This document shows, in pieces, positions 3,461 through 61,329 of a DNA stretch of 64,000 nt (position 1 is its first letter; each line of letters starts with the position of its first letter). Origin of the DNA: Amazonocrinis nigriterrae CENA67 (GTDB taxonomy: Bacteria > Cyanobacteriota > Cyanobacteriia > Cyanobacteriales > Nostocaceae); contig NZ_JAECZC010000086.1 in the NCBI RefSeq assembly GCF_016056305.1, positions 66,945-130,944 on the forward strand, read 5' to 3'. Made by a program: the position numbers and the translations under genes. The notes below the pieces were generated by a model. It had not been told where the DNA came from. It was given only the letters and a program-made list of their open reading frames with translations, and did no database searches.

Positions 3461-3556
3461 AAAAAAATATCAGATATTGGGTTCTATTTGGTTTTAATTT
3501 GGGTTCTATATAAGTAGAATCCAATATCTTCATGAAGTTATAAAAAATAGGTATAG

Positions 3557-10458: not shown

Positions 10459-11313
10459 TTACATTGCCACTCGTGGATAAAGTCGTCCACCAATGATGGC
10501 TAAGACTGTTAATGTAAATGCAAGAATCATCAAGTCAAAACCAAAGCCGTAGACACTGGAGCCATTCAATAGCATCGTGCCACGCAAAGCGTCAACCTGG
10601 TAAGTTAAGGGGTTCAAGTGGGAAATGAACTTTAACCAGCCGGGCATAATAGCAACGGGATAGATCGCATTACTGGCAAAAAATAACGGCATGGTTAACA
10701 TTTGCCCAATTCCTGTCATCCGTTCTCGTGTTTTCGCCAAACAACCAATGATTAGCGAAAAAATGCAAAAACAACCTGCGCCCAACATTACTAGTAGTAA
10801 CACTTGGAAAATAGCTATAGGATGAAAATTAAGTTTGACACCTAAAAACGTTGCTATTGCGTAAATGACCAATACTTGTGATAGACAACGCACTCCACAC
10901 GCAAGAGCTTTGCCCAAGACCATAGCTACGCGCGGTGTAGGACTGGCTAGAAATTTATGCACAATTCCTAAATCTCGCTCCCAGATTAGTGTCATCCCAC
11001 CAGTGAAAATTGCTATATACAACACACTCTGAGCAAGAATACCAGCAGCCATGAAGTCTAAATAGGGTAAGCTTCCTGTAGGAATCTCCCGAAGGCGGGC
11101 AAATACTTGCCCAAAAATGAGTAGCCACAATGATGGTTGTACAGAACGGACTACTAAATCAGTGGGGTCGTGGCGCAGTTTACGCACTTCCAATTCAGCA
11201 ATCACGAAGGTTTTTGTAACTAGCTCTTTAATTGCAGAGATGATATTACCTCGCCTAGCAGTTGGTGCTTTAACCCAACCGCTGGGCAGTACGTCTGGTT
11301 CTTGCTGTATCAC
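10459..11313 (-). CDS. ABC-2 type transporter permease
   Basis: 284 aa, six TM helices, ABC-2 family architecture; overlaps the upstream ATPase gene. Confidence 0.8.
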   Translation of the reverse strand: MIQQEPDVLPSGWVKAPTARRGNIISAIKELVTKTFVIAELEVRKLRHDPTDLVVRSVQPSLWLLIFGQVFARLREIPTGSLPYLDFMAAGILAQSVLYIAIFTGGMTLIWERDLGIVHKFLASPTPRVAMVLGKALACGVRCLSQVLVIYAIATFLGVKLNFHPIAIFQVLLLVMLGAGCFCIFSLIIGCLAKTRERMTGIGQMLTMPLFFASNAIYPVAIMPGWLKFISHLNPLTYQVDALRGTMLLNGSSVYGFGFDLMILAFTLTVLAIIGGRLYPRVAM

Positions 11314-15954: not shown

Positions 15955-16132
15955 AGCGATCGCAAATTATAGAAAATATCGGGTATTAGCAGTCGAAGCA
16001 TACTTTAGGACAGTGCTGATTGCTACTAGCTTTGAAATAACTTGGTTTTTAACGCCAGGTGCTTCAAGTCGGGAAACCCGCCCAACGCACTGGCTCCTCA
16101 GCACTCAGCACTCAGCACTTTGCTATATTAGC
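15955..16132. repeat. about 140-bp dispersed non-coding repeat ending in (CTCAGCA)3-4 CTTTGCTATAT, copy 1 (with a nested truncated MITE)
   Basis: AGCAGTCGAAGCATA.TT.AGGACA.TG.TGATTGCTACTAGC.TTGAAATAACTTG...CTCAGCACTCAGCACTTTGCTATAT is shared with 60559-60696. Confidence 0.75.
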
Positions 16133-16711
16133 AGCACTTAAGCAGGCTGATATGTAGCTATTAATGGGTTTTATTCCTCTTCAATAAACCTGCGCTATGG
16201 GCAATATGTTTCTGTGCTATAGCAATTTTTGCAAGGAGGCTTGTGCAGATTGGTAGCAACCACATAACTCACGATAATTTTTCAACTTGTTGCTGACTGC
16301 TAAAAGTAAAGTTTAGTTTCAAAAAATATTCATCCTCATACATATAGTGTTAACTTATTAATTGAAGCGTAAAGGCTTCCCTGGCAGATCCAACAGCCAA
16401 AGTAAACAAGTTAAATTCAATTAAGAGGTAAAAACGCTGTTTCAAAATCTGTCTCGTTCAATCAAAGCAACACCCAACTTAAACGCTGATATTTCCTCAA
16501 ACTATTAGTGAAAGGGGGCAATACAACTGGTTATCTAACACAATGGAAGTGTTTATCAACTCAGTGTAACCCTGTGGTTTAGTTTGATAATGAGAGGAAA
16601 TAAATTAGGCGGATAGAAAGTTGGGTGTTGCTGTTTTAAGAAGGTAACATCCATAAATCAAAACAGGATTCAAGAACTGAAAAAGCCAAATTTAAGGCTT
16701 TCTTCAAGGCT

Positions 16712-18511
16712 TTAAAAGGGATTGTAAACTAAAGAAAAATACACCCCATCTTCCTGCAATGATTTTCCCTCAGATTCCGCAGATATTAAAGGAATGCCCC
16801 AGTCAAGACGAGCGCTGAAGCGATCGCCTTGTGTCCAACGCAAACCAAGACCAACGGAAGCTAGGGTGTTAGGGTCTGGATTTGGGGCTGAATTATTCCA
16901 GGCAACACCGAAATCTACGAATGGTGCTAGTTTGACAATACTATTTGTTTCGGACAAGCGGAGAATTGGTATTTGCACTTCAGCAGAAGCAAAAGTGCCA
17001 TTATCCGTCAATAATAAATCTTGACGATAGCCCCGAACACTGTCCAAACCACCTAAGCCGAATTGCTCTAAAGGTAACAGCGAAGTAGATGATATTTGGG
17101 TATTTAGGCGTAAAAGTAATAAAGTATCAGGAGCTAAAAGACGCGCCCACTGTGCTTGCCCTTGCCATGCAAAAAACCGGCCATCAGGACGGACTGAATT
17201 AATTGTGGCATTAAATGCACCTGTGCCTAAATTGAATTGAGAACGCAGGGCAATGACTTCACGGCTGTTACGAGATGTCCATTCTTGAAAAAAACGCAAC
17301 GCAGATATACGCGTGCGTCCCTCGTCGTCAGCACCCAAGGAAGGAAAAGCTATGCGATCGCCTTCGATATAAGAGGCTTCACTTTCCCGTCGAGAAGCTG
17401 TGACGCCAAGGGCAAATTCTTGCCTAGGAGTTTGAACAATTGGCTGGCGGAATGTCAGTTCGTAGTAGCGAGAAGAAGATTCAATGTCTAGAACGTTAAA
17501 AGGACGTTCGATCACATTGCTCCATGAAGTACCAAAGTAAAACGAGAGCGTCCCGTTATAAGGATTGATGGGTAACGTATAGCTAGTATCCAAAGCGTTG
17601 CTACCATCAGTGTTAGTGTAGCTGAGACTCAAACCATCTCCTAGTCCTAACAAGTTGGCTTCATTGACTTGTAGCCGCCGTCGAAAGCTACCAACACTAG
17701 GCGATCGCCCGTTATCAAGAACTACTTGGGTACTGAAGGATTTTGCTTCTGCAATCTTGACTTCTAGCACACTTGCACCAGGGCGTGAACCAGCCGACAA
17801 TTCAGCATTCACAGTTTCAATCAAAGGATTAAGTTGCAACAATTGCAGCGCTTCTAAAAGACGGTCTCGATTGAGAGGCGCTGAAGTAGCAATTTTAAGG
17901 CGACTGCGTACATAATTAGGATTTAGTCGCCTAGTGCCAGTGATTTGGATATCTTCCAATTTACCTTCAACCACCTGAATTGTAATCACACCAGACTTAA
18001 TGATTTGAGGTGGGATATAAGCACCAGAAGTAATGTAGCCCTTTTGAATGTATAAATTGGTAATTTGCGATCGCGCTTGAAAAAGTTCGGTTAGAGAGAT
18101 GGGTCTTTTGGTAAATTGCTCAGTAACTTTAGCTAACTCTTCGGGACTAAATACTGTACTGCCAAAAACTTCAAACCGTTCCACAGTGATAGTTTGAGGA
18201 GTTTTGTCAGATGATGGCGGCTCATCAGGTGTGGGAGTTGAAGTTGAGGGTGGAAGTAGTTCTGTTGGTGGGGGAAGTTGTTGTGGTAGTTCGGGTGAGG
18301 GTTGAGGAGAAGGTAAAGCTGGTTGAATATCTTGCGGTGGCACATCTGACGGTGATGGAACTTGCTGCGACAAGATAAAATTGTTGCTAGCTAATTGCGT
18401 AGTATTAAGTGCTTGGGCTTGTAAGGCTCCAGTAGTGACACTGCTAAGGAACACAAATATACTCAGCGGAAAGCAGGACACTGCAAAGGTCTGAGAGTAT
18501 TTTTCAATCAT
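16712..18511 (-). CDS. ShlB/FhaC/HecB-family two-partner-secretion outer-membrane transporter (TpsB)
   Basis: 599 aa; signal peptide, Pro-rich linker (PSPQPSPELPQQLPPP...), POTRA-like region (FEVFGSTVFSPEEL...), C-terminal beta-barrel ending in aromatic residue (VYNPF). Confidence 0.8.
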   Translation of the reverse strand: MIEKYSQTFAVSCFPLSIFVFLSSVTTGALQAQALNTTQLASNNFILSQQVPSPSDVPPQDIQPALPSPQPSPELPQQLPPPTELLPPSTSTPTPDEPPSSDKTPQTITVERFEVFGSTVFSPEELAKVTEQFTKRPISLTELFQARSQITNLYIQKGYITSGAYIPPQIIKSGVITIQVVEGKLEDIQITGTRRLNPNYVRSRLKIATSAPLNRDRLLEALQLLQLNPLIETVNAELSAGSRPGASVLEVKIAEAKSFSTQVVLDNGRSPSVGSFRRRLQVNEANLLGLGDGLSLSYTNTDGSNALDTSYTLPINPYNGTLSFYFGTSWSNVIERPFNVLDIESSSRYYELTFRQPIVQTPRQEFALGVTASRRESEASYIEGDRIAFPSLGADDEGRTRISALRFFQEWTSRNSREVIALRSQFNLGTGAFNATINSVRPDGRFFAWQGQAQWARLLAPDTLLLLRLNTQISSTSLLPLEQFGLGGLDSVRGYRQDLLLTDNGTFASAEVQIPILRLSETNSIVKLAPFVDFGVAWNNSAPNPDPNTLASVGLGLRWTQGDRFSARLDWGIPLISAESEGKSLQEDGVYFSLVYNPF

Positions 18512-19101
18512 GGCACTAGATTAGTTTCAATGAGAAACTAGGCGATATACGGTAACTGCTTCAGATGTAAATACTACTTGATCCTTTGATAGTAAAGTTG
18601 ATATTTTCCACAAATAAGTAGGTAGATATAAAAACTTTATCTCATTTTTGGGTATGGGGAAGAACTGGACTTAGGGGTAGCACACAATACTACTCGCTTT
18701 GTGCATTTTGAACTCAGAATTTGGTTTGGGAAAAGGTTACTGGGGTTGGGTTAAAGGTTTTTTCTTTCCCTTTTCCCCTTCCCCTTTTCCCCTTAACCGA
18801 CAAGTATTGGGGTAGCACATATTTTTCTTTCCCCTATACCCTACACGCTGCACTCTAATTTTAGTCACTCGTCCATTAGGTAGATTACTAGATTGAAGAT
18901 GTCGCCTCGTTAGTCAGAGGACACATGATAAATGGCTTTCTATGATTGGTTCATAAACTAAAAGACAGCACTAAGAACTTATTAGACCTCTTGCAAAAGT
19001 CGTTCTTAGCGTTCTTTTCTTTGCGACTTTGCGACTTTGCGTGAAACAAAAAAAGATTTATGCAAGAAGTCTATTGACTAGCATCAGCAACCATAAAAAG
19101 C

Positions 19102-19536
19102 TTGCGGGGTGACAAATCTGGAGGGAAAATGCAACACGATGAGTTTATTGGACAGGTACAAAATCGTGCCCACCTCAGTTCACGGGGTGATGCAGAAGTT
19201 GCAACCCGTGCTACTTTAGAAACTTTGGCTGAACGGTTAGCTGGAGGTGAGCCTTTCAATGCGGCTGCCCAACTTCCTAAAGGGATTGCAAATTATTTAC
19301 AACACGAATACGCAGGTATGGGAACGCGCTTCTCATTAGATGAATTTTTTCAGCGAGTCAGTCAACGGGAAGGTGTAGAATTGCCAGATGCGGTTTATCA
19401 CGCCCGCGTAGTAATTGAGGTGCTGAGGGAGGCTATTAGCCCAGGCGAAATCAATGATATTCGCTCTCAACTGCCATCAGAATATAATGCATTATTTGAT
19501 GCAGGAAGCCGAGGAGAAATGCGTGCTAATGCGTAA
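19102..19536 (+). CDS. DUF2267 domain protein
   Basis: 144 aa; MQHDEFIGQVQNRAHLSSRGDAEVATRATLETLAERL... matches the conserved cyanobacterial/actinobacterial DUF2267 pattern. Confidence 0.6.
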   Translation: MRGDKSGGKMQHDEFIGQVQNRAHLSSRGDAEVATRATLETLAERLAGGEPFNAAAQLPKGIANYLQHEYAGMGTRFSLDEFFQRVSQREGVELPDAVYHARVVIEVLREAISPGEINDIRSQLPSEYNALFDAGSRGEMRANA

Positions 19537-19574
19537 AGACTGTTTTCTGAAATAACTAGCAGGAGCTGAACACC

Positions 19575-20267
19575 ATGCTATTTCAAGACCGAACAGCGGC
19601 AGGTCAATTTTTGGCTGGAGAGTTAGCAAATTATGCCAACCTTCCAGATGTGGTGGTGTTAGCTTTGCCTAGAGGTGGTGTACCCGTTGCCTTTGAAGTT
19701 GCTAAAGCATTAAATGCTACCTTAGATGTGCTTGTGGTTCGCAAATTGGGCGTACCTAACGATCAAGAATTAGCAATGGGAGCGATCGCGCCATTGGGTG
19801 TACTAGTACTCAATCAAGATATTGTAAATCAACTCAATATCTCCGATGAAGTAATCACGCGAGTTGCAGAGCGAGAACGACAGGAACTAGAGCGACGGGA
19901 ACGACTTTATCGAGGCGATCGCCCCATTTTGGAGTTGCGGGGACGGACAGTCATCTTGGTAGATGATGGTTTAGCAACAGGTGCAACCATGTGGGCTGCT
20001 GTGGTGGCGTTACGTAAACAAGAACCTGCTTCTATTGTTGTGGCTGTCCCAGTGGCTGCGACTGAAACCTACGAAGATTTGCAAGGTAAGGTAGAAAAAG
20101 TTATCTGCTGTGCCACACCCAAGCCTTTTTATAGTGTAGGTGGTTGGTACGAAAAATTTCCACAAACCACAGATGAAGAAGTTTGTAATCTACTAGAAAA
20201 AGCAACAAAGATTTACGAGTTACACATGGTAGAGAAATCAAAACTTGGGGCTGGGTATGGGGCATAG
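19575..20267 (+). CDS. phosphoribosyltransferase family protein
   Basis: 230 aa; PRPP-binding loop VILVDDGLATGATM preceded by hydrophobic beta-strand; N-terminus LALPRGGVPVA. Confidence 0.75.
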   Translation: MLFQDRTAAGQFLAGELANYANLPDVVVLALPRGGVPVAFEVAKALNATLDVLVVRKLGVPNDQELAMGAIAPLGVLVLNQDIVNQLNISDEVITRVAERERQELERRERLYRGDRPILELRGRTVILVDDGLATGATMWAAVVALRKQEPASIVVAVPVAATETYEDLQGKVEKVICCATPKPFYSVGGWYEKFPQTTDEEVCNLLEKATKIYELHMVEKSKLGAGYGA

Positions 20268-20502
20268 GGGAGTGAAAAATCAATACCTCATGCCCTCGAA
20301 CTCAACAAAAATTTAGCTGCGTAAGTCCAGAGATTGATTAGCCATTCTTGACTTCTAATACCAATTTTAAAAATGATTGTGACAGATTTATTGATAAAAC
20401 CCGGATACATAAGGTGATTCACAATCTAAAATCTAAAATTTAAAATCCAAAATCCAAAATAGTATAGGTTCTGTACTTTAACCTGTTGAGCAAATAATAA
20501 CT

Positions 20503-20721
20503 ATGAATCTGCAAATTTATGAATTGAAACAAACCGCATCCCAATTGTTAGCAGCTATGCTATCTAATCCTCATATTTATTCACAGGTGAGTGATGAGGG
20601 AGGCTATGGAAAAATGGAACAGCAATTGATTTTGATTGCTGTTGAAATGGCCGAAAGTTTAATTCAGCATATTGAAAATGCACACCCTCAAGGTGAACCT
20701 GAATTAAACCAAAAGAACTAA
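20503..20721 (+). CDS. hypothetical small protein
   Basis: 72-aa ORF, no motif recognised. Confidence 0.3.
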   Translation: MNLQIYELKQTASQLLAAMLSNPHIYSQVSDEGGYGKMEQQLILIAVEMAESLIQHIENAHPQGEPELNQKN

Positions 20722-20963
20722 TTTGATTATTTGGCGATCGCTGTTGGGAACATTAATATAAGTACGACTGTAAAAGACGACGAAATTTACTGAATATACG
20801 CGATCGCTCTTATCAGAAAACAATTAATATAGAAGCATAACATTTCTGAAAACACCAAGTTGGAAGCATCAGCTTGGCGTAAGATATTGTTAATTTTTAT
20901 AAAAACTATTTAACTACCATACTAGAATTTAGAAAGCAGCAAACTTCCCTAAAATCATCTCTA

Positions 20964-21368
20964 ATGCGACAGTTAAGCATTGAAATCTCAGACGAGCTTG
21001 CCCAACGTCTAGAGCCGTTTCAAAATCAACTTTCTGAACTGGTAACTCGCTTAATAACTACAAACTTGCTTGGTGATACTGCTTCTAATGTTGTCGTTAA
21101 TTCAACACAGCCACCGCCTATTTATTTAGAGGTTTTAGATTTTTTAGTCACTCGCCCCACCTATGAGCAAATTTTAGCATTCAAGGTTTCTGAGCGATCG
21201 CAGGCTCAGTTACAAACATTACTTGAGAAAAACCGCGAGGGTAATCTCAGTTCCTTCGAGACTGCTGAATTAAACTTGTATGAACAACTTGATGCTTTGA
21301 TGACTATGCTGAAAGCCAGAGCCTATTCCGCCATCAAAGCTACCTCGGATAGTTTAAACTTGGCATGA
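20964..21368 (+). CDS. hypothetical protein preceding HNH-endonuclease remnant
   Basis: 134 aa, predicted all-helical; its 3' end overlaps the upstream end of the HNH remnant frame. Confidence 0.4.
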   Translation: MRQLSIEISDELAQRLEPFQNQLSELVTRLITTNLLGDTASNVVVNSTQPPPIYLEVLDFLVTRPTYEQILAFKVSERSQAQLQTLLEKNREGNLSSFETAELNLYEQLDALMTMLKARAYSAIKATSDSLNLA

Positions 21369-21606
21369 CTCCCTATATTGTGAACGAAAAAATTACACCT
21401 TGTTTAATCCGCGATCGCAAAGCTGGACTGATCATTTTAAGCTAGAAGACGGTTATATTGTGGGGTTAACAGCAATCGGACGAACAACTATCTTTTTGTT
21501 AAAGTTGAATGATTTAACTCGCGTTCAAATCCGGCAAGCTTTAATCATGCAAAACCTTTACCCACAAAATATTCTACACTTAGGGGTCTTTGACGAAATT
21601 TACTGA
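21358..21606 (+). pseudogene. HNH endonuclease, C-terminal remnant lacking the catalytic HNH half
   Basis: Frame open from 21358 with no ATG; TTG at 21400. Encodes ...LFNPRSQSWTDHFKLEDGYIVGLTAIGRTTIFLLKLNDLTRVQIRQ.... This matches the conserved C-terminal half of a cyanobacterial HNH-endonuclease family (FNPR..W..HF....G.I.G.T.IGR.T...L.LN......R). The N-terminal Cys/His HNH motif is absent. Confidence 0.45.
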
Positions 21607-23588
21607 CTATCCGCGATCGCTCTTTTTTTCAACCTCCAAGCGTTATATGATTCGTTAAAGCGAGATTCATAGGGTAAAAGTTCCATCGCTTTACTGTAAG
21701 CTTGAAGAATTTCTGTTTCAGGTGCTCTTAACCAATTTAATACTTTTGCAAGATCAAACCAGCACCAAGCATTTCTCACTGGATCATCTGATAACTGAAT
21801 AGCACGACGCAATAATTCTACTGCTTCTCTGTTTAATCGCTTCTTCGTATGTATTTCTTTACTTTTTAATGAGTATGCCAAATTAATTTTAGTTTGAGCA
21901 TATTCTTGAAGTGATTTAGGATCATCTTTTATGAGTTCATAATTTGCAGTAAAAATCTGATGAGCTTCCTGGAAACGTTTAGCACGTTTATACAGGACAG
22001 CTAACTCTACTATGTCATCAATTTGTATGGGTGATGGTGCTTGTTCTAGTATTTCTGAAGCTCGTTTTGGCTGTCCTCTATCTAACAGAATCTTTGCAAT
22101 TGCAATAAAAGGCAGATGACGATCCATGATCGTCGGATCAATCTCAGTATCCCTAAAAAGTTTTTCTGCTGTAGAAAACTCTCCTAATGATGTTCTATAC
22201 TCAATAATTTGAGCGATAAGTGCTCCAGATTTTGGAACTCTATTAAGTGCTGACTCTAGATTAGAAATTGCTCTTTGACGCTCACCTACAGCCCATAAAT
22301 GAGCACTTTCCCTAATAGCATGAATAACCACATATTGAGGGTGGGCTGGTAATATAACTTGGAAATAACTGCGTGCATCATCAAAATTAAAACTTGGATC
22401 TGGTGAACCGTTTTCCCTCATTTTTCTACGTATCTTAGGAATACCGGTTCCACGAGTTTCGGCTAGGGCTAAATCTTTTAAAAAATCACCAATTCTTCGA
22501 TTTCGGTAAGGGACAGGTGGTATTGTCGCTCCTGGCTGCAAATGTTTTCTTTCAATCCCTTGTACTGGCCCAGGGTAACTTATGATTTCCAATCTGTCTG
22601 GATACAAATACACCTTGACTGGTTCTTGAACGCCTTCGTAGCTACGATGATAAACAGCATTAACTAATGCTTCCTCCATTGCTTCATATGGATATGCAAC
22701 TGTTCTATAGGAGGTAGCTTGATTTGGAACTTTCCGAATCATTGTTGTACTGAATGTATTAAGATAATCCAGAGCTTGACGAAGCTGTAAATGTAAAGGC
22801 CCTCGGAAAATTTTCTCCTCTATTAAGTCTCCACCTGCATCATCGCCAAATTGTACAATCTCAATTCTCGCACCAGGAAAATATTCTTCTGGATTATGAA
22901 CAAAGAATAATAGAGCTATATTTTTGGGAACTTCATGGCTATTAATTGGTGCTGTAATACGTAGATGGCGATATAGTTCATGATCTGATATTACAACATT
23001 TTGTGAAACTAAGTCACTTTTTATATCTGACAAAAATTCTCTAACTAGTCCTGGTGATATTTTGTCAATAGAAATAGACAAGTTGCGACGATCATCAAAT
23101 GGAACTTTGGCTGCCATTTGCATCAATTGAGTTAAAATGTCATCTTTTGCTTTTACAGATTCACTTCCTTGTCTAACATAATAAAATTTTTCGCTATTGT
23201 TCGTAGTTTCAGGAGCTTGATATGGACGAACATCACCAGCAGGTATCCAAATTACTAAGATTTGCTTTTCTTGATATATTTCAGGAGATAATACTGGCTG
23301 ATATTCAGGAGAAATTCGTTTACAATTTCCACGAATCCATTTCTGAATATCATCTAGATTTTGTCCGTCTAGTCCGTGTGGAGGAAGAATAGGCTGACCA
23401 TCTCGGTCTTCAATTCCGATAATTATATAACCACCATTTAGATTAAAAAAATCATTAGCAAAGGCACAAATACTGCGTAGTGTGCTGTCACTTATTTGCG
23501 GTGTCCAAGTTTTCTTGAATTCTCTACGGACGGATTCGACTGACCGAGCGTGAATAAGATCGTCAAGGTTGATAGGCAGTACATTCAT
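21600..23588 (-). CDS. AlbA_2 (Schlafen-like) + HATPase_c_4 + C-terminal TPR-like protein
   Basis: 662 aa. N-terminal E..EFK...ICAFAN....GGYIIIGIED.DG is the AlbA_2 (divergent AAA) signature. Central EEALVNAVYHRSY......VYLYPDRLEIISYPGP is HATPase_c_4 (RecG-C-terminal-like). The C-terminal about 250 aa has TPR-like helical repeats. AT-rich codon usage relative to neighbours. Confidence 0.75.
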   Translation of the reverse strand: MNVLPINLDDLIHARSVESVRREFKKTWTPQISDSTLRSICAFANDFFNLNGGYIIIGIEDRDGQPILPPHGLDGQNLDDIQKWIRGNCKRISPEYQPVLSPEIYQEKQILVIWIPAGDVRPYQAPETTNNSEKFYYVRQGSESVKAKDDILTQLMQMAAKVPFDDRRNLSISIDKISPGLVREFLSDIKSDLVSQNVVISDHELYRHLRITAPINSHEVPKNIALLFFVHNPEEYFPGARIEIVQFGDDAGGDLIEEKIFRGPLHLQLRQALDYLNTFSTTMIRKVPNQATSYRTVAYPYEAMEEALVNAVYHRSYEGVQEPVKVYLYPDRLEIISYPGPVQGIERKHLQPGATIPPVPYRNRRIGDFLKDLALAETRGTGIPKIRRKMRENGSPDPSFNFDDARSYFQVILPAHPQYVVIHAIRESAHLWAVGERQRAISNLESALNRVPKSGALIAQIIEYRTSLGEFSTAEKLFRDTEIDPTIMDRHLPFIAIAKILLDRGQPKRASEILEQAPSPIQIDDIVELAVLYKRAKRFQEAHQIFTANYELIKDDPKSLQEYAQTKINLAYSLKSKEIHTKKRLNREAVELLRRAIQLSDDPVRNAWCWFDLAKVLNWLRAPETEILQAYSKAMELLPYESRFNESYNAWRLKKRAIADSQ

Positions 23589-23797
23589 AATCAGTCCATA
23601 TTCACTCTAGTTTGATGTGATGTCACAGCCTGAATTTAAGTTATGGTGTTATGTGCTACAACTTATAACTTCCTCCTTCGCTGATTACCTCAGCTTTGAA
23701 GATTAAGCTGGCTTTTCACAGCATCTGGAAAAAGTAATTTTGCTAGCTAAGCAATCACATCATTTTAGTTGTTTGCCAAACTTTTACTTTAAAGAAA

Positions 23798-23870
23798 TGG
23801 AGCTAAGCGGATTCGAACCGCTGACCCCCTCAATGCCATTGAGGTGCTCTACCAACTGAGCTATAACCCC
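23798..23870 (-). tRNA. tRNA-Ala (anticodon GGC)
   Basis: Reverse complement folds as a canonical cloverleaf. Acceptor GGGGUUA/UAGCUCC has the G3:U70 Ala identity pair and discriminator A73. D-arm GCUC-AGUUGGUA-GAGC. Anticodon stem CCUCA/UGAGG with loop AUGGCAU (GGC). T-arm AGCGG-UUCGAAU-CCGCU. CCA is not encoded. Confidence 0.9.
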
Positions 23871-23963
23871 GCATAGTGCATTATTTATGTTGCCCCAATT
23901 TTAGTATTTTGTCAACTTTGACGCTGCTGAATGTCACCAATCGCATTTACTACTCAGCACCAA

Positions 23964-24155
23964 TTAAGAAACCTGCAACAAATAGCTCATGCAATGCCCC
24001 ATGAGAAAGTAAACTACTAACATGGCAGCTGCGGCAAGAGCAACCAATGTACCAGCCAGCATTAAAGAAAATTCTTTATTGGCGTATGCTTTTTCCATCA
24101 GGTGCAGCGACCACGCCACCAAAGCAACATCAAATAATAATATAGGTATCAACAT
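23964..24155 (-). CDS. hypothetical small two-TM membrane protein
   Basis: 63-aa hydrophobic ORF. Confidence 0.3.
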   Translation of the reverse strand: MLIPILLFDVALVAWSLHLMEKAYANKEFSLMLAGTLVALAAAAMLVVYFLMGHCMSYLLQVS

Positions 24156-24260
24156 ATTTCTTAATATATATTAATAGTTGTACATTAATGTTAACATCCT
24201 TTCTTGCAACTGTATCTAACTTTGGGTAGATGTGGTTATTTTTCAATAATGTTTATCAAG

Positions 24261-25034
24261 TTAAGATAATAACCTTACTGGCACTGAGCGATCGCGCAAA
24301 TACTCTTTAATTTCTGCCACGCTTAACTGGCCATAATGCAGCAATGATGCTAGTAATGCAGCTTCGGCTTTGCCTTCGGTGAGTGCAGTGTAAATGTGTT
24401 CACAATTGCCTGCGCCACCAGAAGCAATTACTGGAATTTGTACAGATTCTGCGATCGCTCTCGTCAACCCTAAGTCGTACCCGGCTTGAGTGCCGTCAGC
24501 GTCCATACTTGTAACTAATAATTCACCTGCTCCTCGTTTTTCAACTTCTTGGGCCCAAAGTAAAGCATCTAAACCAGTGTTTTCTCGACCACCACGTACG
24601 TAAACATCCCACCCTGGATTAATAGGGTCAGTTCTGCGCCTGGCATCAATAGCAACAACTATGCACTGATTACCAAAGCGATCGCTTGCCCGATTAATCA
24701 AGTCTGGTTCGCGTACTGCCGCAGAATTAATACTAACCTTGTCTGCCCCAGCGCGTAACAAAGCTTTAACATTTTCTAAGGATTGAATCCCACCACCTAC
24801 AGTCAGTGGAATAAAGACCTGTTCAGCAGTGCGGTAAACCACATCAAGAATTATATCTCGGTCTTCATGAGTGGCTGTAATATCCAGAAATACTAACTCA
24901 TCAGCCCCAGCTTCGTTGTAAACCTTTGCCAGTTCCACAGGATCGCCTGCGTCTTTGAGATTAACAAAGTTAACTCCTTTGACAACTCGTCCCGCCTTCA
25001 CATCTAAGCAGGGTAAAATTCTTTTAGATAACAT
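24261..25034 (-). CDS. hisF: imidazole glycerol phosphate synthase cyclase subunit HisF
   Basis: 257 aa; RI.PCLDV..GRVVKGV.F....[10 protein letters not shown]...GADEL.FLDI...GGG...TSMD. canonical HisF. Confidence 0.95.
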
Positions 25035-25187
25035 AATAAGTTTTTAGCTCTTGGGTAATTGTCCGGAAATTAAATTTTAAATTGACGCGTGTATTTCCCA
25101 ACGAAAAATCTTCGCAACCGTATTGAGTCGCAATTGCGGCGCAAACGGCGCTCAAATAGTCCTAAAGTGGAAGTCAATAGCTGAATT

Positions 25188-26285
25188 ATGGCGATTATCT
25201 CCTCGAAAAAACAGCCTCCAGAACCCAATGGAGAACCAAAGCAGCGCCGGGAGTCGGCGAAAGCACCGTCCAACGAAAATATTTTGCAACCTGAAGCAGC
25301 TATTGATGAAGGTAAGCAAGAAGAGAGTATACGACCACAGCGATTTGCCGATTACATTGGGCAAAAAGACCTCAAGGATGTGCTGGATATTGCCATCAAA
25401 GCAGCCAAGTCTCGCGGTGAAGTCCTGGATCATTTACTGCTGTATGGCCCGCCAGGTTTGGGTAAAACCACAATGGCGATGATATTAGCATCGGAGATGG
25501 GGGTAAATTATAAAATTACCAGTGCGCCAGCCTTAGAACGTCCCAGAGATATTGCCGGGCTACTAGTGAACCTCAAACCTGGTGATATTCTGTTTGTGGA
25601 TGAAATTCATCGCTTGTCACGGATGACAGAAGAAATTCTCTATCCAGCAATGGAAGATTATCGCTTAGATATAACCATCGGCAAGGGTACAAGCAGCCGT
25701 ATCAGAAGTGTACCTTTGTCTAAATTTACACTAGTAGGAGCGACAACTCGTGTCGGTGCCTTGACTTCACCACTACGCGATCGCTTTGGCTTAGTGCAAA
25801 AACTGCGCTTTTATGAAGTTGACGAACTCAGCTTAATTGTATTGCGAAGCGCTCAATTATTGCAAACCCCAGTTACAGAGGATGGTGCCACAGAAATTGC
25901 CCGTCGTTCACGAGGCACACCACGTATTGCTAATAGGTTACTCAAGCGAGTACGTGATTATGCGGAAGTAAAATCATCTGGAGAAATTACTGGAAGCGTT
26001 GCAGCCGAAGCATTGCAACTATTTCAAGTAGACCCTTGTGGCTTGGATTGGACAGACCGCAAGATGTTGAGTGTAATTATTGAACAATTTAACGGCGGCC
26101 CTGTGGGATTGGAAACAATAGCAGCGGCGACTGGTGAAGATAGCCAAACTATCGAAGAAGTTTATGAACCTTATTTGATGCAAATTGGGTATTTAAGCCG
26201 GACTCCCCGTGGTAGGGTAGCGACAAAGGCAGCATACAAGCATTTGGATTTTAAGCCGCCTAATGAACAGTTATCGCTGATGTAG
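25188..26285 (+). CDS. ruvB: Holliday junction branch migration helicase RuvB
   Basis: 365 aa; Walker [10 protein letters not shown], Walker B FVDEIHRL, sensor and arginine finger region, winged helix C-terminus. Confidence 0.95.
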
Positions 26286-26299
26286 TGGAGGATGATTAG

Positions 26300-26465
26300 C
26301 TCGTGCAGGGGTGCAGACGAGATAAGGGGATGGGGTGATGGGGAGATAGGGAGATGAGGGGATGGGGAGATGGGGAGAAGTAACTAAATTCCCAATTACC
26401 AATTCCCAATTCCCCATGCCCCATGCCCCATGCCCAATGCCCTATTCCCAATTCCCTATTTTGAC
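26300..26465. repeat. STRR palindrome (GGGGATG/GGGAGAT arrays then CCCCATG/CCCAATT arrays)
   Basis: Direct reading of tandem heptamers in inverted orientation upstream of the TPR gene. Confidence 0.8.
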
Positions 26466-26477
26466 AGGTAAATCCAG

Positions 26478-27284
26478 ATGATTAAGTTGATTGGTATTGT
26501 TCTGAGTCTGTTAGTTGTGTTTGGCTGGGGTACACCAGTCATGGCACAATCTCCACAATCCGGTTTCACTCAAGAGCAATTAGAACAGGGGAATGAGTGG
26601 GCAAATGAGGCGTTTGCAGCCACGAATCAGGGTGATTTTGTCACGGCTGAACAGTACTGGACAAAGATTATTGAGCAATTTCCCACTAATGCCGGAGCAT
26701 GGAGTAACCGAGGAAATTCGCGGGTGAGTCAGAATAAGTTGCAAGCAGCACTGACTGATTACAACAAAGCCATAGAACTAGCGCCAGATGTCACCGATCC
26801 ATATTTGAATCGCGGTACAGCTTTGGAAGGATTGGGGAAATGGGAAGATGCGATCGCAGATTATAATCGCGTCTTAGAACTCGATCCTAATGATGCGATG
26901 GGATACAACAATCGCGGTAATGCGAAAGCAGGTTTGGGAAAATGGGAAGATGCGATCGCTGATTACAAAAAATCAGTAGAAATCGCCCCGAATTTTGCTT
27001 TTGCTCGCGCCAATTATGCCCTTGCCCTTTATGAAACTGGTCAAATCGAGCCAGCCATCCGGGAAATGCGGAATATCGTCCGCAAATATCCCAAGTTTGC
27101 TGACATGCGTGCTGCACTGACAGCTGCTTACTGGGTAACAGGACAAAAAGGCGAAGCCGAGAGTAATTGGGTAGCAGCTTATGGACTTGACACCCGCTAC
27201 AAAGATATCAACTGGGTGCAAAATATCCGCCGTTGGCCTCCTAGTATGGTGGCTGCTTTGGATAAGTTCTTGAAACTTCAGTGA
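26478..27284 (+). CDS. TPR repeat protein (signal peptide)
   Basis: 268 aa; repeated W.NRGN....GKWEDAIADY..(A/V)LEL.P TPR units. Confidence 0.8.
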   Translation: MIKLIGIVLSLLVVFGWGTPVMAQSPQSGFTQEQLEQGNEWANEAFAATNQGDFVTAEQYWTKIIEQFPTNAGAWSNRGNSRVSQNKLQAALTDYNKAIELAPDVTDPYLNRGTALEGLGKWEDAIADYNRVLELDPNDAMGYNNRGNAKAGLGKWEDAIADYKKSVEIAPNFAFARANYALALYETGQIEPAIREMRNIVRKYPKFADMRAALTAAYWVTGQKGEAESNWVAAYGLDTRYKDINWVQNIRRWPPSMVAALDKFLKLQ

Positions 27285-27355
27285 TAGTTCTTTGAGCAGG
27301 GGTGCAGGGGAGCAGGGGAGCAGGGGTGCAGGGGAGAATGACAAATGACAACTGA

Positions 27356-28144
27356 CTACTGACTACTAACTATTTCTTCAATCTTGACAGAATTTAGTTG
27401 TTGAACATTACTCAAAACTACTGCTGCTCCTGCTGTCAATAGTGATTCGCCATAAGTGTGACTACGTACTGGTGTTTCTTGGACATGAGGCGGTAAAACT
27501 CCTACACCTATCCAAGTGCGGTGAGGATTTATCTCTCGTGCCTTGCTTACCGTGTACATATCAGCTACCGTATCTCCCACATAAATGATTGCTGGCGTTT
27601 CATTCAACCCATTTTCTAATTGCTCAACAGTGGCAAAAAGTCCGGTGGGGTCTGGTTTACCTGGTGCATCTTCCATTGCAATCAATACAGGAGACTGCAA
27701 GCCTAGACGTTTTACTAAAACATAGTTAGCAGAACCACGGGTAGCACCGCTGAAAAATCCCCAACCAATGCTAGCTTGTGTTAATTCCTCCAGGTAGGAA
27801 GGCTGTAATAATAACGGTTCATCACAGATATATCCTGTCCAATTATCAGGGTCAGTTCCTCGGTAACGTGATTGAAAGAAAGCAACAATAGAGTTGTAGT
27901 CTAGTTGCAATTGCTCGCGGGACTGTCCTTGAGCATTAAAGTAGCGGTAAATTAATTCTTGGGATGCTTCCCAATCATTATTCCAGACACCTTCGGACTT
28001 TAACTGGTCAATGTCTAACGAGCTAGGACGATATGCTTGATTGGTAAAATACTCTACAGTATCTGCGATCGCTCGGCGATATGAACCGCTGACATCGCGT
28101 ACAACTCCATCAATATCGAAAATAACGATTGCTTTTTGATTCAT
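27356..28144 (-). CDS. HAD-superfamily hydrolase
   Basis: 262 aa; motif I FDIDGVVRDV (DxDG), later YVGDTV.D motif. Confidence 0.7.
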   Translation of the reverse strand: MNQKAIVIFDIDGVVRDVSGSYRRAIADTVEYFTNQAYRPSSLDIDQLKSEGVWNNDWEASQELIYRYFNAQGQSREQLQLDYNSIVAFFQSRYRGTDPDNWTGYICDEPLLLQPSYLEELTQASIGWGFFSGATRGSANYVLVKRLGLQSPVLIAMEDAPGKPDPTGLFATVEQLENGLNETPAIIYVGDTVADMYTVSKAREINPHRTWIGVGVLPPHVQETPVRSHTYGESLLTAGAAVVLSNVQQLNSVKIEEIVSSQ

Positions 28145-35868: not shown

Positions 35869-36096
35869 TTGATAAACTTTTTACCCATTACGAGGATTTA
35901 TTGGATGATTATTACACCGACCATGATTGGATTAGTACTTGCAATAATTGGCGTGTTAGCCTGGATTGCGGGTAATTTCAAAATTGCCAATTTGGAAATA
36001 AATTTTGAAACAACAAAAGGAATTTTTGTATTTATCTTTGCTGTATTGCATATAGTGGTGGGTCTGCTGCTTATTGTCATTGACTTAATTTTCTAA
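35869..36096 (+). CDS. hypothetical small membrane protein
   Basis: 75-aa ORF with two hydrophobic segments in an AT-rich spacer. Confidence 0.3.
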   Translation: MINFLPITRIYWMIITPTMIGLVLAIIGVLAWIAGNFKIANLEINFETTKGIFVFIFAVLHIVVGLLLIVIDLIF

Positions 36097-36311
36097 AATT
36101 TTTGCAGCTAGTCCAGTTCTTGTCCAAAAATGTTTGTGAGTACTAGTTGTTTAGCAAGCTGTCTTTATCATCTGCATTCATTGGCGGACATGTTAACACT
36201 AGCTTTTGCTAAAGCTCACAATTATTCATGAGAGTTAAACCTTAAATAATTTTTACCAAAAGTCGCTCATTGCGCTATCTTGAAAAGTAAGCTTTCAGGA
36301 GTGCATCTTTC

Positions 36312-37007
36312 ATGAAAGGCAAGCAAGTTTTACTCACAGGTGGTACTGGTGGACTTGGTTTAGGTGTGACACCGGCAGTTCTCGCCCAAGATGCGGAAGT
36401 GACAATTTCTTATCGTAATCCCAAAGAAGTCGAACGCCTTAAGCATACTCTTTTGCCCGCAGATTTTGAGAGACTTCACTTTATTCCCGCTAATCTAGAG
36501 GAGGAAGCCTCAGTAGAAAATCTCATCAACCGCATAGGACGGGTAGATGTGTTAATTCATCTAGTAGGTGGCTTTTCAATGGGAAAAATTCACGAATACA
36601 GTTTTTTCGATTGGAAACACGAATTTGAGATTAACCTAAATACAACTTTTTTGACTTGCAAGCATAGCCTAAAAAGTATGTGGGAACATGGCTATGGGCG
36701 CATTGTTACGGTGGCTTCCAAAGCAGCTAATGAACCAGCTGGGCAATTGGGTGCATATTCTGCTGCTAAAGCTGGTGTAGTAGCTTTGACAAAAGCGATC
36801 GCAGATGAAACTAAAGGTACTGATATCACTGCTAATGTTGTCCTTCCTAGCGTGATTGATACCCCTGCAAACCGCGAAGCAATGGGTGCAGAAAATGCTG
36901 ATAGTTGGGTCAAACCGGAATCCTTAGCACAATTAATTTGCTTTTTAGCCTCTCAAGCTGCTAAAGATATTCGCGGCGCTGCAATCCCAATATATGGCAA
37001 TCTTTAG
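36312..37007 (+). CDS. SDR family oxidoreductase
   Basis: 231 aa; TGGTGGLG Rossmann motif, catalytic YSAAK. Confidence 0.85.
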   Translation: MKGKQVLLTGGTGGLGLGVTPAVLAQDAEVTISYRNPKEVERLKHTLLPADFERLHFIPANLEEEASVENLINRIGRVDVLIHLVGGFSMGKIHEYSFFDWKHEFEINLNTTFLTCKHSLKSMWEHGYGRIVTVASKAANEPAGQLGAYSAAKAGVVALTKAIADETKGTDITANVVLPSVIDTPANREAMGAENADSWVKPESLAQLICFLASQAAKDIRGAAIPIYGNL

Positions 37008-37048
37008 GTAAATTTCAGTACCTAAAATCAAGGTTATGGTTGTCAATA

Positions 37049-37090
37049 GTCAATGGTCAATAGTTTAAAACTTGACTATTGACCATTGAC
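37049..37090 (+). terminator. 16-bp-stem hairpin built from inverted heptamers (GTCAATGGTCAATAGT / ACTATTGACCATTGAC) 40 bp after the SDR gene stop
   Basis: Perfect 16-bp inverted repeat with a 10-nt loop; no U-run follows, so it may be an RNA stability element or bidirectional terminator rather than a classic intrinsic terminator. Confidence 0.3.
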
Positions 37091-37581
37091 TTCTTCAGAG
37101 TGAGGGTACAAGCTTCACCTAAAAGATGGTTAAAAAATTTACTTGTTAACCACGAAGCCACTAAGACAGAAAGGTAAAAAAAATCAAATTTGGTAAATTC
37201 TTGGAGGATTTTTTACCCACTTGAAAAGGGCTAGTATCTAAAATTTATATAAAAATATACAACTATTTAAGCATTAATGTCATAAAAATACCATAATTAA
37301 TTATTTATTTTGAAGTAACTAATTTTATAGAAGATATTGTACAAACAGATAATCTTAACGTCTGATCATATGATGACTAAGTGTAAAATTTAAACATTCT
37401 TGACGAAAGCTTTAAAAAGTACTTAGAAAATAGTAAGGACGCGAAACAGTAAATCTAGATAAATGAATTGAGGTTATATGAGACATCACCGAATTTCTCG
37501 CAATCTAATTGTCAAGTAGTTAGCTTGTTATGTATAACTAGTTGGCTTTATAACAATGCAATCCAATTGAGTGCGAAATAA

Positions 37582-60085: not shown

Positions 60086-60394
60086 GGGAGGTTGCGAAAT
60101 CAGGAGATGATTACGTTATGTAGCTATATCTCTCATGTTTCTGGGGTTATGTAATTTGCAATATATATTTTTATCTCACGCAGAGGCGCAAAGGCGCAAA
60201 GAACAGAGGCGCTAAGAAGAATGTTAAGGGTGTCTTAACGAGAATAAGTATATTCTGCAAGGATTGTTAAAAGTCATCAGTCATCAGTTATCGCTCATCG
60301 GTCAACCAATTTCTCTAATTATGATTGATTATTGATTGATTCTGTCTGTAATTGTTGTATTTCCTCAACAGTACAGCACCGCCACTTGCTTTAA

Positions 60395-60490: not shown

Positions 60491-60558
60491 TACCAGACTC
60501 AAATCTTTTGTGGTAATGGTTTTTTCGACTTGTGTGTACACTGTAGAACCCAAGGAGG

Positions 60559-61278: not shown

Positions 61279-61329
61279 TCGGCAAGTGCTTAAAGTCACC
61301 TCTAAAAACTTTTTAAACAACCTCTTAGC

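What the first reader, a model, noticed from the sequence alone, without database searches (positions are those of the whole stretch)
20280..23880. AT-rich accessory islet next to the tRNA-Ala(GGC) 3' end: AlbA_2(Schlafen-like)-HATPase_c_4-TPR protein plus small protein and HNH-endonuclease remnant
Downstream of the 3' end of tRNA-Ala (23798), a classic integration hotspot, lies a block whose codon usage is visibly more AT-rich than the flanking hisF/ruvB and phosphoribosyltransferase genes. It encodes:
- a 662-aa protein fusing an AlbA_2 (Schlafen-type) nucleic-acid-binding domain and an HATPase_c_4 domain to an unusual C-terminal extension of about 250 residues of TPR-like repeats;
- a 134-aa helical protein;
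- the C-terminal half of an HNH endonuclease that has lost its catalytic half.

The islet is bordered by heptamer arrays and a MITE terminal fragment (about 20319). AlbA_2/HATPase_c_4 proteins are widespread and usually called regulators. The TPR fusion and the tRNA-proximal, nuclease-remnant-containing context suggest a mobile defence or abortive-infection-type locus rather than a housekeeping regulator. I found no duplicated tRNA 3' segment (no att repeat), so the mobility is inferred from composition and context only.
Basis: partly seen in the sequence, partly recalled or inferred. Interest (0 to 1): 0.6.

Follow-up and report, generated by a model that had tools for sequence, protein, structure and literature searches.

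The report
Strain-specific Schlafen–ATPase–TPR gene beside tRNA-Ala
A 2.15-kb single gene for a Schlafen-type predicted tRNA nuclease, fused to an ATPase and a TPR domain, sits in this Nostoc-like cyanobacterium exactly where one sister strain has a restriction-enzyme gene and another has almost nothing, so it is an ordinary but clean example of swappable, probably antiviral, cargo at a tRNA-flanking hotspot.

Summary
The sequence features are real. The 662-aa ORF (21600-23588, minus strand) contains SLFN_AlbA_2, the GHKL ATPase domain HATPase_c_4, and seven TPR hairpins. It keeps the Schlafen nuclease motif (E18-x4-E23-x-K25), the CAFAN box and the GHKL E306/N310 pair.

Two sister genomes settle the island question:
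- Nostoc sp. NIES-4103 has the same PRTase-o72-o134-HNH-tRNA-Ala-hisF synteny. Its HNH gene is intact, and 96 bp lie where this gene sits.
- Nostoc sp. UHCC 0702 has the type I restriction gene hsdR in that slot.

Only about 21627-23780 (the gene plus 192 bp upstream) is strain-specific. It has the lowest GC3 in the window, and no integrase or att repeat. The o72, o134 and HNH genes are residents of this sub-clade and are not part of the same mobile unit.

The protein belongs to the recently described prokaryotic Schlafen / "Schlatpase" class of antiphage tRNases. TPR-tailed members have been catalogued but never tested. Defence is therefore inferred, not shown.

One observation counts against a fast-evolving phage sensor. 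The family is 57-83% identical across bacteria and archaea, and in one other lineage it is inherited vertically at the same pace as its housekeeping neighbours.

The MITE claim and the plural "heptamer arrays" were not confirmed. Verdict: a new member of a known kind, of moderate interest.

The parts
23798..23870 (-). tRNA-Ala(GGC). Its 3' end (23798) plus about 12-17 bp of flank is the right-hand conserved border of the variable slot.
   Evidence: ARAGORN; Rfam RF00005, 65.8 bits. Homology to the relatives ends at 23781-23797.
21627..23780 (.). Strain-specific insert of about 2.15 kb: the Schlafen-GHKL-TPR gene (codons 1 to about 654) plus 192 bp upstream. It replaces 96 bp in NIES-4103 and the 3.1-kb hsdR segment in UHCC 0702. 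The left junction is uncertain within 21606-21634 and the right junction within 23780-23788.
   Evidence: blastn against L095/L096; junction alignments. GC 0.371 against 0.421 for the window, and no HIP1 site inside.
21600..23588 (-). 662-aa prokaryotic Schlafen ("Schlatpase"-TPR) gene, 210 nt downstream of tRNA-Ala and in the same orientation. The last 8 or so codons and the stop codon come from resident DNA (repeat copy 2).
23148..23537 (-). SLFN_AlbA_2 nuclease domain (aa 18-147). It carries the motif E18-x4-E23-x-K25 (nt 23514-23537) and the CAFAN box (aa 41-45).
22344..22688 (-). GHKL-type ATPase core (aa 301-415; Pfam HATPase_c_4 covers aa 323-413) with N-box E306-x3-N310 and the RGTG lid.
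21606..22340 (-). C-terminal TPR domain (aa 417-661, 14 helices), the putative sensor. It is the least conserved domain.
   Evidence: TPR_19 39.3 bits and TPR_14 34 bits, both above cut-off. AF2 pLDDT above 90. TPR structural hits. Column conservation 0.64. The tail alone finds only 203 clusters at 50% identity among 1.84 billion representatives. Nine of the ten shorter hits scanned with Pfam matched a family, and eight of those carry HATPase_c_4.
21400..21606 (+). HNH endonuclease remnant (homology 21381-21605). It matches residues 82-136 of the intact 136-aa orthologue. A 208-bp deletion removed the HNH motif, and the stop codon mutated from TAA to CAA, which adds 13 codons.
20964..21368 (+). 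o134, a conserved cyanobacterial helical protein of unknown function. In the sister strains its stop codon overlaps the HNH start codon, so the two form a two-gene cassette.
   Evidence: 528 homologue clusters. Gene pair in L095/L096/L097. Not paired with HNH in Pseudanabaena. AF2 model all-helical, pLDDT 64.6.
20779..20811 (+). Copy 1 of a 33-nt direct repeat with a HIP1 (GCGATCGC) core.
   Evidence: 31 of 33 bases identical to copy 2; 0 expected by chance. Also present in UHCC 0702.
21592..21624 (+). Copy 2 of the 33-nt repeat. It spans the converging stop codons of the HNH remnant and the Schlafen gene, and its right edge coincides with the left junction of the insert.
20503..20721 (+). o72, a small ORF conserved at this position in both sister strains (72 aa and 66 aa). 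It is resident, not part of the insert.
20423..20460 (+). A single heptamer tandem array (AATCTAA x5.4) of the cyanobacterial STRR type.
   Evidence: TRF, score 55.

Best explanation
The window comes from Amazonocrinis nigriterrae (Nostoc sp.) CENA67.

Between a resident o134-HNH cassette and the 3' flank of tRNA-Ala(GGC) lies a variable cargo slot. In this strain the slot holds a horizontally acquired 2.15-kb single-gene insert. The insert encodes a prokaryotic Schlafen of the "Schlatpase" type: an AlbA_2 nuclease and a GHKL ATPase, with a C-terminal TPR domain in place of the usual HTH.

The most likely mechanism is inferred by homology to RzAgo and RorSlfn5:
1. The TPR domain acts as a sensor for a trigger, either a protein or peptide or a nucleic-acid end, that appears on infection or stress.
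2. [quoted passage not shown]
3. The Ex4ExK site cleaves tRNA, which shuts down translation (abortive-infection type).

Shown here: the domain architecture, conservation of the catalytic residues, the presence/absence polymorphism, the exact junctions, the foreign composition, and the absence of a conserved partner gene.

Inferred: tRNase activity, ATP-driven assembly, the sensor role of the TPR domain, and antiphage function.

The insertion probably arose by recombination within the conserved flanks of a hotspot, not through an integrase.
For: Architecture and motifs.

Slot polymorphism:
- NIES-4103 has o134-HNH(136 aa)-tRNA-Ala with 96 bp in the slot, and UHCC 0702 has hsdM-hsdS-orf326-o134-HNH-hsdR-tRNA-Ala.
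- None of 80 other cyanobacterial species with the conserved ruvB-hisF-o63 block, most of them also carrying tRNA-Ala(GGC), has the gene within 10 kb, and homology ends at the tRNA 3' end.
- Elsewhere in Nostocales the same tRNA flank carries TniQ pairs (Tn7-like), an AIPR protein, AAA_16/WD40 proteins and PADLOC candidates.

Foreign composition: GC3 is 0.222, the lowest of 25 ORFs, and there is no internal HIP1 site.

Single-gene unit:
- Eight different genomic contexts share no neighbour.
- Nucleotide homology between homologues stops at the ORF ends.

Patchy distribution: the family is 57-83% identical across Nostocales, Methanoperedens, Methanosarcinales, Desulfobacterales, Anaerolineae and Gammaproteobacteria.

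Literature:
- Prokaryotic Schlafens are antiphage tRNases with the Ex4(E/D)xK motif, and 69.6% lie near defence genes (PMC13056530).
- The Schlatpase module, its ATP-driven tetramerisation, tRNA cleavage and catalogued TPR tails are described in bioRxiv 10.64898/2026.05.29.728809.
Against: - There is no functional test of any TPR-tailed member.
- In the published E. coli phage panel only the DUF262 and Ig-like Schlafen fusions protected, so the SLFN-HisKinase (GHKL) fusions tested there did not.
- Most sampled contexts are housekeeping neighbourhoods with few or no recognised defence genes.
- In L005 against L008 the gene is syntenic and 76% identical, while its flanks are 79% and 74% identical. 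That indicates vertical inheritance at housekeeping pace, with the TPR domain at 68%. This is atypical for an arms-race sensor.
- No full-length copy was found on plasmids or phages in the collections searched.
- No sigma-70-like promoter was found in the 192-bp upstream region.
Confidence: 0.6

Rival explanations
1. This is a non-immune Schlafen-ATPase. It would be a stress-responsive or regulatory tRNA/RNA-binding enzyme, for example one that controls translation. Its TPR domain would sense a conserved cellular ligand, and the gene happens to have been transferred into this strain.
For: - Conservation is very high across phyla and domains, and the TPR domain is included.
- It is inherited vertically at housekeeping pace between the UbiD and MqnE-like genes in two organisms.
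- Most contexts are housekeeping.
- 30.4% of prokaryotic Schlafens are not near defence genes, and the authors allow non-immune roles.
- The SLFN-HisKinase fusions gave no defence in the published panel.
Against: - In CENA67 it is a strain-specific insert in a slot that holds hsdR in a sister strain.
- Its distribution is patchy, as expected from horizontal transfer.
- Some contexts include an AAA_15/AAA_21 gene, N6_N4 methyltransferases, a MalT-type STAND protein, or a transposase fragment.
- Every experimentally characterised prokaryotic Schlafen so far acts in immunity.
Confidence: 0.25
2. The whole block 20280-23880 (o72, o134, HNH remnant and Schlafen gene) is one mobile defence island. 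It integrated into tRNA-Ala by a site-specific recombinase, and its genes work together.
For: - The block is AT-rich overall.
- It lies next to a tRNA 3' end.
- In other Nostocales this tRNA flank is used by Tn7-like elements.
Against: - o72, o134 and HNH are present without the Schlafen gene in NIES-4103 and UHCC 0702, at 87-95% nucleotide identity.
- Schlafen homologues elsewhere never have o134 or HNH as neighbours.
- There is no integrase or transposase and no att duplication.
Confidence: 0.04
3. The Schlafen gene is a decaying, non-functional relic in a degenerating locus. Its C-terminal end is replaced by resident DNA, its neighbour HNH is disrupted, and no promoter is evident.
For: - The last 8 or so codons and the stop codon derive from native sequence.
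- The adjacent HNH gene carries a deletion and has lost its stop codon.
- No consensus promoter was found upstream.
Against: - The ORF is intact over 662 codons with every conserved catalytic and structural residue.
- The replaced tail lies after the near-invariant W651, in a region that is variable and basic in all homologues and of normal length here.
- The gene lies downstream of the tRNA gene in the same orientation, so read-through transcription is possible.
Confidence: 0.08

Closest known systems
Prokaryotic Schlafen nucleases (pSlfn; Perez Taboada et al., Nat Microbiol 2026, PMC13056530), in particular the Slfn-HisKinase class
   Same: - It has a PF04326 domain with the Ex4(E/D)xK motif.
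- It is fused to a histidine-kinase-like (GHKL) domain and a further putative sensor domain.
- It is a single-gene system.
- Its distribution is patchy, as expected from horizontal transfer.
   Different: - The characterised members (RorSlfn5 with an Ig-like sensor, EcoSlfn7 with DUF262) have other sensors and no GHKL domain.
- A TPR tail is not discussed in the main text.
- The tested HisKinase fusions did not protect in E. coli.
- Nothing is known about the trigger here.
Schlatpase supradomain of SLFN-pAgo (RzAgo; bioRxiv 10.64898/2026.05.29.728809)
   Same: - The SLFN_AlbA_2 + PF13749 GHKL module is homologous (PADLOC pAgo model, E 1.6e-20, aa 29-404).
- The equivalent residues are conserved: RzAgo D32, E314 and N318 correspond to E23, E306 and N310 here.
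- It has the Schlafen box.
- The preprint lists TPR-tailed Schlatpases as a class.
   Different: - There is no PAZ/MID/PIWI core, so there is no guide-dependent sensing.
- The C-terminal sensor is a 7-repeat TPR.
- Filament or tetramer behaviour is unknown.
DIP2311 of Corynebacterium diphtheriae (PDB 3lmm) and COG2865-type 'RecG-like/putative transcriptional regulator' proteins
   Different: According to the preprint, more than 90% of Schlatpase C-terminal tails are an HTH. Here that tail is a TPR domain. The function of 3lmm is unknown.
Chromosomal defence hotspots with swappable cargo between conserved flanks (my own recollection of E. coli, Vibrio and Pseudomonas pan-genome studies; not checked in the paper library)
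   Same: - The flanks are conserved: o134-HNH or the 33-nt repeat on one side, and tRNA-Ala-o63-hisF on the other.
- Three alternative fillers occur in three strains: 96 bp, hsdR, and the Schlafen gene.
- No mobility genes are present.
   Different: - Only three genomes share this exact slot.
- The wider Nostocales show different content starting right at the tRNA, including Tn7-like elements.
- No statistical enrichment for defence genes was computed.

Membership tests
Prokaryotic Schlafen nuclease (pSlfn) | Full-length PF04326 SLFN_AlbA_2 domain (more than 100 aa) | tested here: met
   aa 18-147, E 2.4e-17, 64 bits against a cut-off of 25.3. Structural matches to 2kyy and the SAMD9 DNA-binding domain.
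Prokaryotic Schlafen nuclease (pSlfn) | Catalytic Ex4(E/D)xK motif | tested here: met
   VESVRREFKK contains E18, E23 and K25. E18 is invariant, and E23 and K25 are at least 90% conserved in 43 homologues.
Prokaryotic Schlafen nuclease (pSlfn) | Trigger-activated tRNA cleavage and phage protection | not testable with these tools
   This needs biochemistry and phage assays.
Prokaryotic Schlafen nuclease (pSlfn) | Neighbourhood of defence genes (69.6% of pSlfn lie within 10 kb of one) | tested here: inconclusive
   In the window the only defence-like neighbour is a disrupted PtuB-like HNH gene. The same slot holds type I R-M in UHCC 0702. The other family contexts are mostly housekeeping, with occasional methyltransferase, AAA_15 or STAND genes.
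Schlatpase supradomain (SLFN + GHKL ATPase) | PF04326 followed by PF13749 in one polypeptide | tested here: met
   PADLOC PDLC02394 aligns across both domains.
Schlatpase supradomain (SLFN + GHKL ATPase) | GHKL N-box Glu and Asn (RzAgo E314/N318) and the Schlafen box (SAFAN) | tested here: met
   E306 and N310 are invariant. In CAFAN (aa 41-45), A44 and N45 are invariant.
Schlatpase supradomain (SLFN + GHKL ATPase) | ATP-dependent tetramerisation that activates the nuclease | not testable with these tools
   Only a monomer model was built.
SLFN-pAgo | PAZ/MID/PIWI Argonaute core C-terminal to the Schlatpase module | tested here: not met
   The PADLOC pAgo profile (1121 positions) is matched only at positions 50-427. 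The C-terminus is TPR.
TPR repeat domain | Profile match above the curated cut-off and a helical-hairpin solenoid | tested here: met
Integrase-mediated tRNA genomic island | Integrase or recombinase gene, and a direct repeat of the tRNA 3' end (attL/attR) | tested here: not met
   No such ORF lies between 20280 and 23880. The tRNA 3' 22-mer is unique even with up to 3 mismatches allowed. No tRNA-derived repeat was found.
Integrase-mediated tRNA genomic island | Presence/absence polymorphism at the tRNA flank | tested here: met
HNH endonuclease (PF01844), for the 68-aa ORF | HNH catalytic motif | tested here: not met
   The window keeps only residues 82-136. The motif (residues about 22-64 in the orthologues) is deleted. 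No Pfam hit.

The most novel reading that the evidence does not exclude
The TPR-tailed Schlatpases are a distinct, autonomous single-gene sensor-effector family. Their unusually conserved TPR domain would recognise a universal, non-variable cue rather than a phage-specific protein. Candidates are a conserved translation or tRNA-associated component, or a nucleic-acid end as in the IFIT proteins. That would explain how the same gene works after transfer between cyanobacteria, sulfate reducers, Chloroflexi and methanotrophic archaea. In CENA67 the gene may be expressed by read-through from the tRNA-Ala gene it sits behind.
Probability: 0.15. Interest if true: 0.6.

Novelty: new member of a known kind. 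Interest (0 to 1): 0.4.

Why it matters
The three strains form a natural isogenic-like series at one chromosomal slot: empty, hsdR, and Schlafen-TPR. The insertion junctions are defined to within a few bases. That makes a convenient entry point for testing the uncharacterised TPR-tailed branch of the largest prokaryotic Schlafen class (SLFN+GHKL), which has not yet shown a phenotype in the one published screen that included SLFN-HisKinase fusions. It also marks the 3' flank of tRNA-Ala(GGC) as a recurrent landing and exchange site in Nostocales, used by Tn7-like elements, Abi-like genes, R-M genes and the Schlafen gene. If the TPR domain turns out to sense a conserved cue, the family would differ from the phage-protein sensors described so far.

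Tried and rejected
- **MITE at about 20319:** the 20-mer is single-copy even with up to 3 mismatches allowed, and blastn against all fetched loci finds only the orthologous site. Rejected.
- **att site or duplicated tRNA 3' end:** none found.
- **Conserved partner gene for the Schlafen-TPR protein:** eight independent contexts share none.
- **Plasmid or phage carriers:** the Schlatpase module occurs on 91 plasmid and 27 phage records, but none covers at least 80% of the query.
- **TPR tail fused to other effectors:** the tail-only search gave 203 clusters. Of ten shorter hits scanned with Pfam, eight carry HATPase_c_4, one shows only TPR_14 and one has no hit. The shorter ones look like truncated gene calls or versions lacking the SLFN domain.
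- **Exact-protein look-up of the 662-aa product:** returned nothing, although the 100% identical NCBI entry exists.
- **o134 function:** no significant Pfam, NCBIfam or PADLOC hit. The AF2 model (pLDDT 64.6) was too weak to justify a fold search.
- **Promoter, terminator and Rfam scans of the locus:** nothing beyond the tRNA.
- **HIP1-free gap as a foreignness signal:** a gap of 2.7 kb is not unusual at about one site per kb, so I use it only as a weak supporting note.
- **Supplementary tables of PMC13056530:** not held, so I could not check whether a TPR class is among the 55 architectures.

Full report
**1. Observation**

- PRTase, 19575-20267 (+)
- a 72-aa ORF, 20503-20721 (+)
- a 134-aa ORF, 20964-21368 (+)
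- a 68-aa ORF, 21400-21606 (+)
- a 662-aa ORF, 21600-23588 (-)
- tRNA-Ala(GGC), 23798-23870 (-)
- a 63-aa ORF, then hisF and ruvB

GC falls to 0.35-0.40 between about 20250 and 23750, against 0.44-0.47 in the flanks. The 662-aa gene has GC3 0.222, the lowest of the 25 ORFs of at least 250 aa in the window.

Two border claims failed. There is only one heptamer array, at 20423-20460. The supposed MITE end at about 20319 is single-copy. No tRNA-derived repeat exists.

**2. The organism and the island question**

The protein is 100% identical to an entry from Nostoc sp. CENA67. The taxonomy dump lists CENA67 as a strain of Amazonocrinis nigriterrae.

A hisF-anchored scan returned 80 cyanobacterial species. 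The block ruvB-hisF-o63 is conserved in most of them, and a match to the tRNA-Ala(GGC) gene follows it in most. None has the Schlafen gene, o134, the HNH gene or the PRTase within 10 kb. Nucleotide homology to the nearest Nostoc genomes stops at 23796-23797, which is the tRNA 3' end. The DNA beyond the tRNA also differs among those relatives.

The decisive comparison came from close orthologues of o134:
- Nostoc sp. NIES-4103 (L096) has omp-DUF2267-PRTase-o66-o134-HNH(136 aa)-o63-hisF-ruvB. The tRNA-Ala gene lies between HNH and o63.
- Nostoc sp. UHCC 0702 (L095) has PRTase-o72-hsdM-hsdS-orf326-o134-HNH(136 aa)-hsdR-o63-hisF. The tRNA-Ala gene again lies just before o63.

blastn maps the window onto NIES-4103 as follows:
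- Window 16126-21379 aligns colinearly at 88-93% identity.
- Window 21381-21605 aligns after a 208-bp gap, at 91% identity.
- Window 23781-27500 aligns at 94% identity.
- Window 21606-23780 has no counterpart there and stands in for 96 bp.

Against UHCC 0702, homology runs on to 21626, and the interval replaces the 3.1-kb hsdR segment.

The strain-specific DNA is therefore about 21627-23780. That is the Schlafen gene plus 192 bp upstream. It lies 210 nt behind the tRNA gene and in the same orientation.

The last 8 or so codons (KRAIADSQ) and the stop codon are read from resident DNA. They fall after the near-invariant W651, in a tail that is variable and basic in all homologues, so the protein is complete.

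**3. The neighbours**

The 68-aa ORF is 96% identical to residues 82-136 of the intact HNH orthologue. The 208-bp deletion removed the CxxC...HxxxH...N half. The stop codon changed from TAA to CAA, which adds 13 codons. The intact protein matches PtuB-type HNH models at E 4e-12.

o134 belongs to a cyanobacterial family of 528 clusters with no annotated domain. It is all-helical in a weak model. It overlaps the HNH start in the three Nostoc loci, but in Pseudanabaena it stands alone.

A 33-nt direct repeat with 31 of 33 bases identical and a HIP1 core lies at 20779-20811 and 21592-21624, flanking o134 and the HNH remnant. Both copies also occur in UHCC 0702, where they bracket hsdM through HNH. 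The left cargo junction in CENA67 lies at the right edge of copy 2. In NIES-4103 it lies inside copy 2. I do not know what this repeat does.

**4. The protein family**

More than 120 clusters at 90% identity have the same full-length architecture at 57-83% identity. Their named sources include Methanosarcinales, Ca. Methanoperedens, Desulfobacterales, Anaerolinea and Gammaproteobacteria.

In an alignment of 43 members, E18, A44, N45, D46, E306 and N310 are invariant. E23 and K25 are at least 90% conserved. This gives:
- the Schlafen nuclease motif Ex4ExK
- the Schlafen box (CAFAN)
- the GHKL E-x3-N N-box

Mean column conservation is 0.77 for SLFN, 0.74 for the middle region, 0.85 for GHKL and 0.64 for TPR.

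The TPR tail alone finds only 203 clusters at 50% identity among 1.84 billion representatives. Of ten shorter hits scanned with Pfam, eight carry HATPase_c_4. The tail therefore appears specific to this clade.

Eight independent genomic contexts share no neighbour. Nucleotide homology between homologues stops at the ORF ends. No copy covering at least 80% of the protein was found on plasmids or phages.

**5. What is known**

Perez Taboada et al. (PMC13056530) showed that prokaryotic Schlafens are antiphage tRNases with an Ex4(E/D)xK site fused to diverse sensors. Slfn-HisKinase (34%) and HisKinase-HTH (19%) are the commonest architectures. In their E. coli panel only the DUF262 and Ig-like fusions protected.

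The SLFN-pAgo preprint (10.64898/2026.05.29.728809) names the SLFN+PF13749 pair "Schlatpase". It shows ATP-driven tetramerisation that assembles the nuclease, and tRNA cleavage on target recognition. [quoted passage not shown]

The protein in this window aligns to the PADLOC SLFN-pAgo model over aa 29-404 (E 1.6e-20) but lacks the Argonaute core. It is therefore a member of an already catalogued but uncharacterised TPR-tailed Schlatpase class.

**6. Mechanism**

[quoted passage not shown] The architecture and the residue conservation are shown. The remaining steps are inferred by homology.

The slot behaves like a hotspot:
- A sister strain has type I R-M cargo in it.
- Three other Nostocales species have TniQ pairs about 200 bp from the same tRNA (TniQ_IB, E 2.6e-68).
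- Anabaena azotica has an AIPR protein there.
- Other species have AAA_16/WD40 proteins and several PADLOC candidates.

**7. Caveats**

In L005 and L008 the gene sits between UbiD and an MqnE-like gene in two different organisms. It is 76% identical there, and the flanking proteins are 79% and 74% identical. The TPR domain is 68% identical against 79-85% for the rest of the protein. In that lineage the gene is inherited vertically at housekeeping pace.

Together with the cross-domain conservation, this suggests one of two things. Either the cue is conserved, or the role is not immune. I give the trigger-activated tRNase/defence reading 0.6 and the non-immune reading 0.25. A classical integrase island and a single four-gene system are effectively excluded.

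**8. Verdict**

The Schlafen gene is accessory and of a defence type. The islet, however, is composite, the TPR fusion is not unusual, and the function is untested. This is a new member of a known kind, interest 0.4.

Noticed in passing
L027:11425-14496 (Nostoc carneum NIES-2107), L033:11428-14636, L035:11426-14489: Two tandem TniQ-family genes begin about 200 bp downstream of tRNA-Ala(GGC) in three Nostocales species (Pfam TniQ about 1e-17; PADLOC TniQ_IB 2.6e-68). This looks like a Tn7-like or CRISPR-associated transposon that homes to this tRNA flank.
   Followed up: partly
L023:11684-13357 (Anabaena azotica FACHB-119); L010:11286-14236: Other cargo lies directly behind the same tRNA: an AIPR (abortive-infection-type) protein in A. 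azotica, and an AAA_16 NTPase plus a WD40 protein in Nostoc sp. S13 and its relatives. Uma2, PDC-S03, MkoA and PD-T4-6 hits occur in further species.
   Followed up: partly
window 20779-20811 and 21592-21624; L095 about 4868-4903 and about 10836-10871: A 33-nt direct repeat (about 45 nt in UHCC 0702) with a HIP1 GCGATCGC core brackets o134-HNH in CENA67 and hsdM through HNH in UHCC 0702. The left cargo junction lies at the right edge of copy 2 in CENA67 and inside it in NIES-4103. Its role as a recombination site, regulatory element or scar is unknown.
   Followed up: partly
L095:5489-13894 (Nostoc sp. UHCC 0702): A type I R-M operon is split by the o134-HNH cassette, giving hsdM-hsdS-orf326 | o134-HNH | hsdR. 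orf326 has no PADLOC hit. The small HNH pair may be an accessory of the R-M locus.
   Followed up: no
window 23964-24155 (-): A 63-aa predicted membrane protein between tRNA-Ala and hisF is conserved at that position in 77 of the 80 cyanobacterial loci (55-97% identity), so it is a real core small gene. It has no Pfam family.
   Followed up: partly
window 21565-21567 versus L095/L096: The stop codon of the HNH gene (TAA in both sister strains) is CAA in CENA67. This extends the remnant ORF by 13 codons, so it overlaps the stop codon of the converging Schlafen gene.
   Followed up: yes
L005:8001-9989 and L008:8001-9998: In two different organisms the Schlafen-TPR gene sits between UbiD and an MqnE-like radical-SAM gene of the futalosine/menaquinone pathway, with an N6_N4 methyltransferase two genes downstream. 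It has diverged as much as its neighbours (76% against 79% and 74%).
   Followed up: partly
plasmid NZ_CP143861.1 (Synechococcus elongatus IITB7), 2560-3669: A Schlatpase-like match lies under features annotated as a Fic family protein and a restriction endonuclease subunit S. This echoes the Schlatpase-HsdS fusions mentioned in the SLFN-pAgo preprint.
   Followed up: no
window 36001-38000 and 60001-64000: These are further low-GC stretches (0.357-0.377) comparable to the one studied. They were not examined.
   Followed up: no
window, whole: There are 63 HIP1 (GCGATCGC) sites in 64 kb against 0.35 expected. None lies inside the 2.15-kb insert, although gaps of this size also occur elsewhere in the window.
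   Followed up: partly
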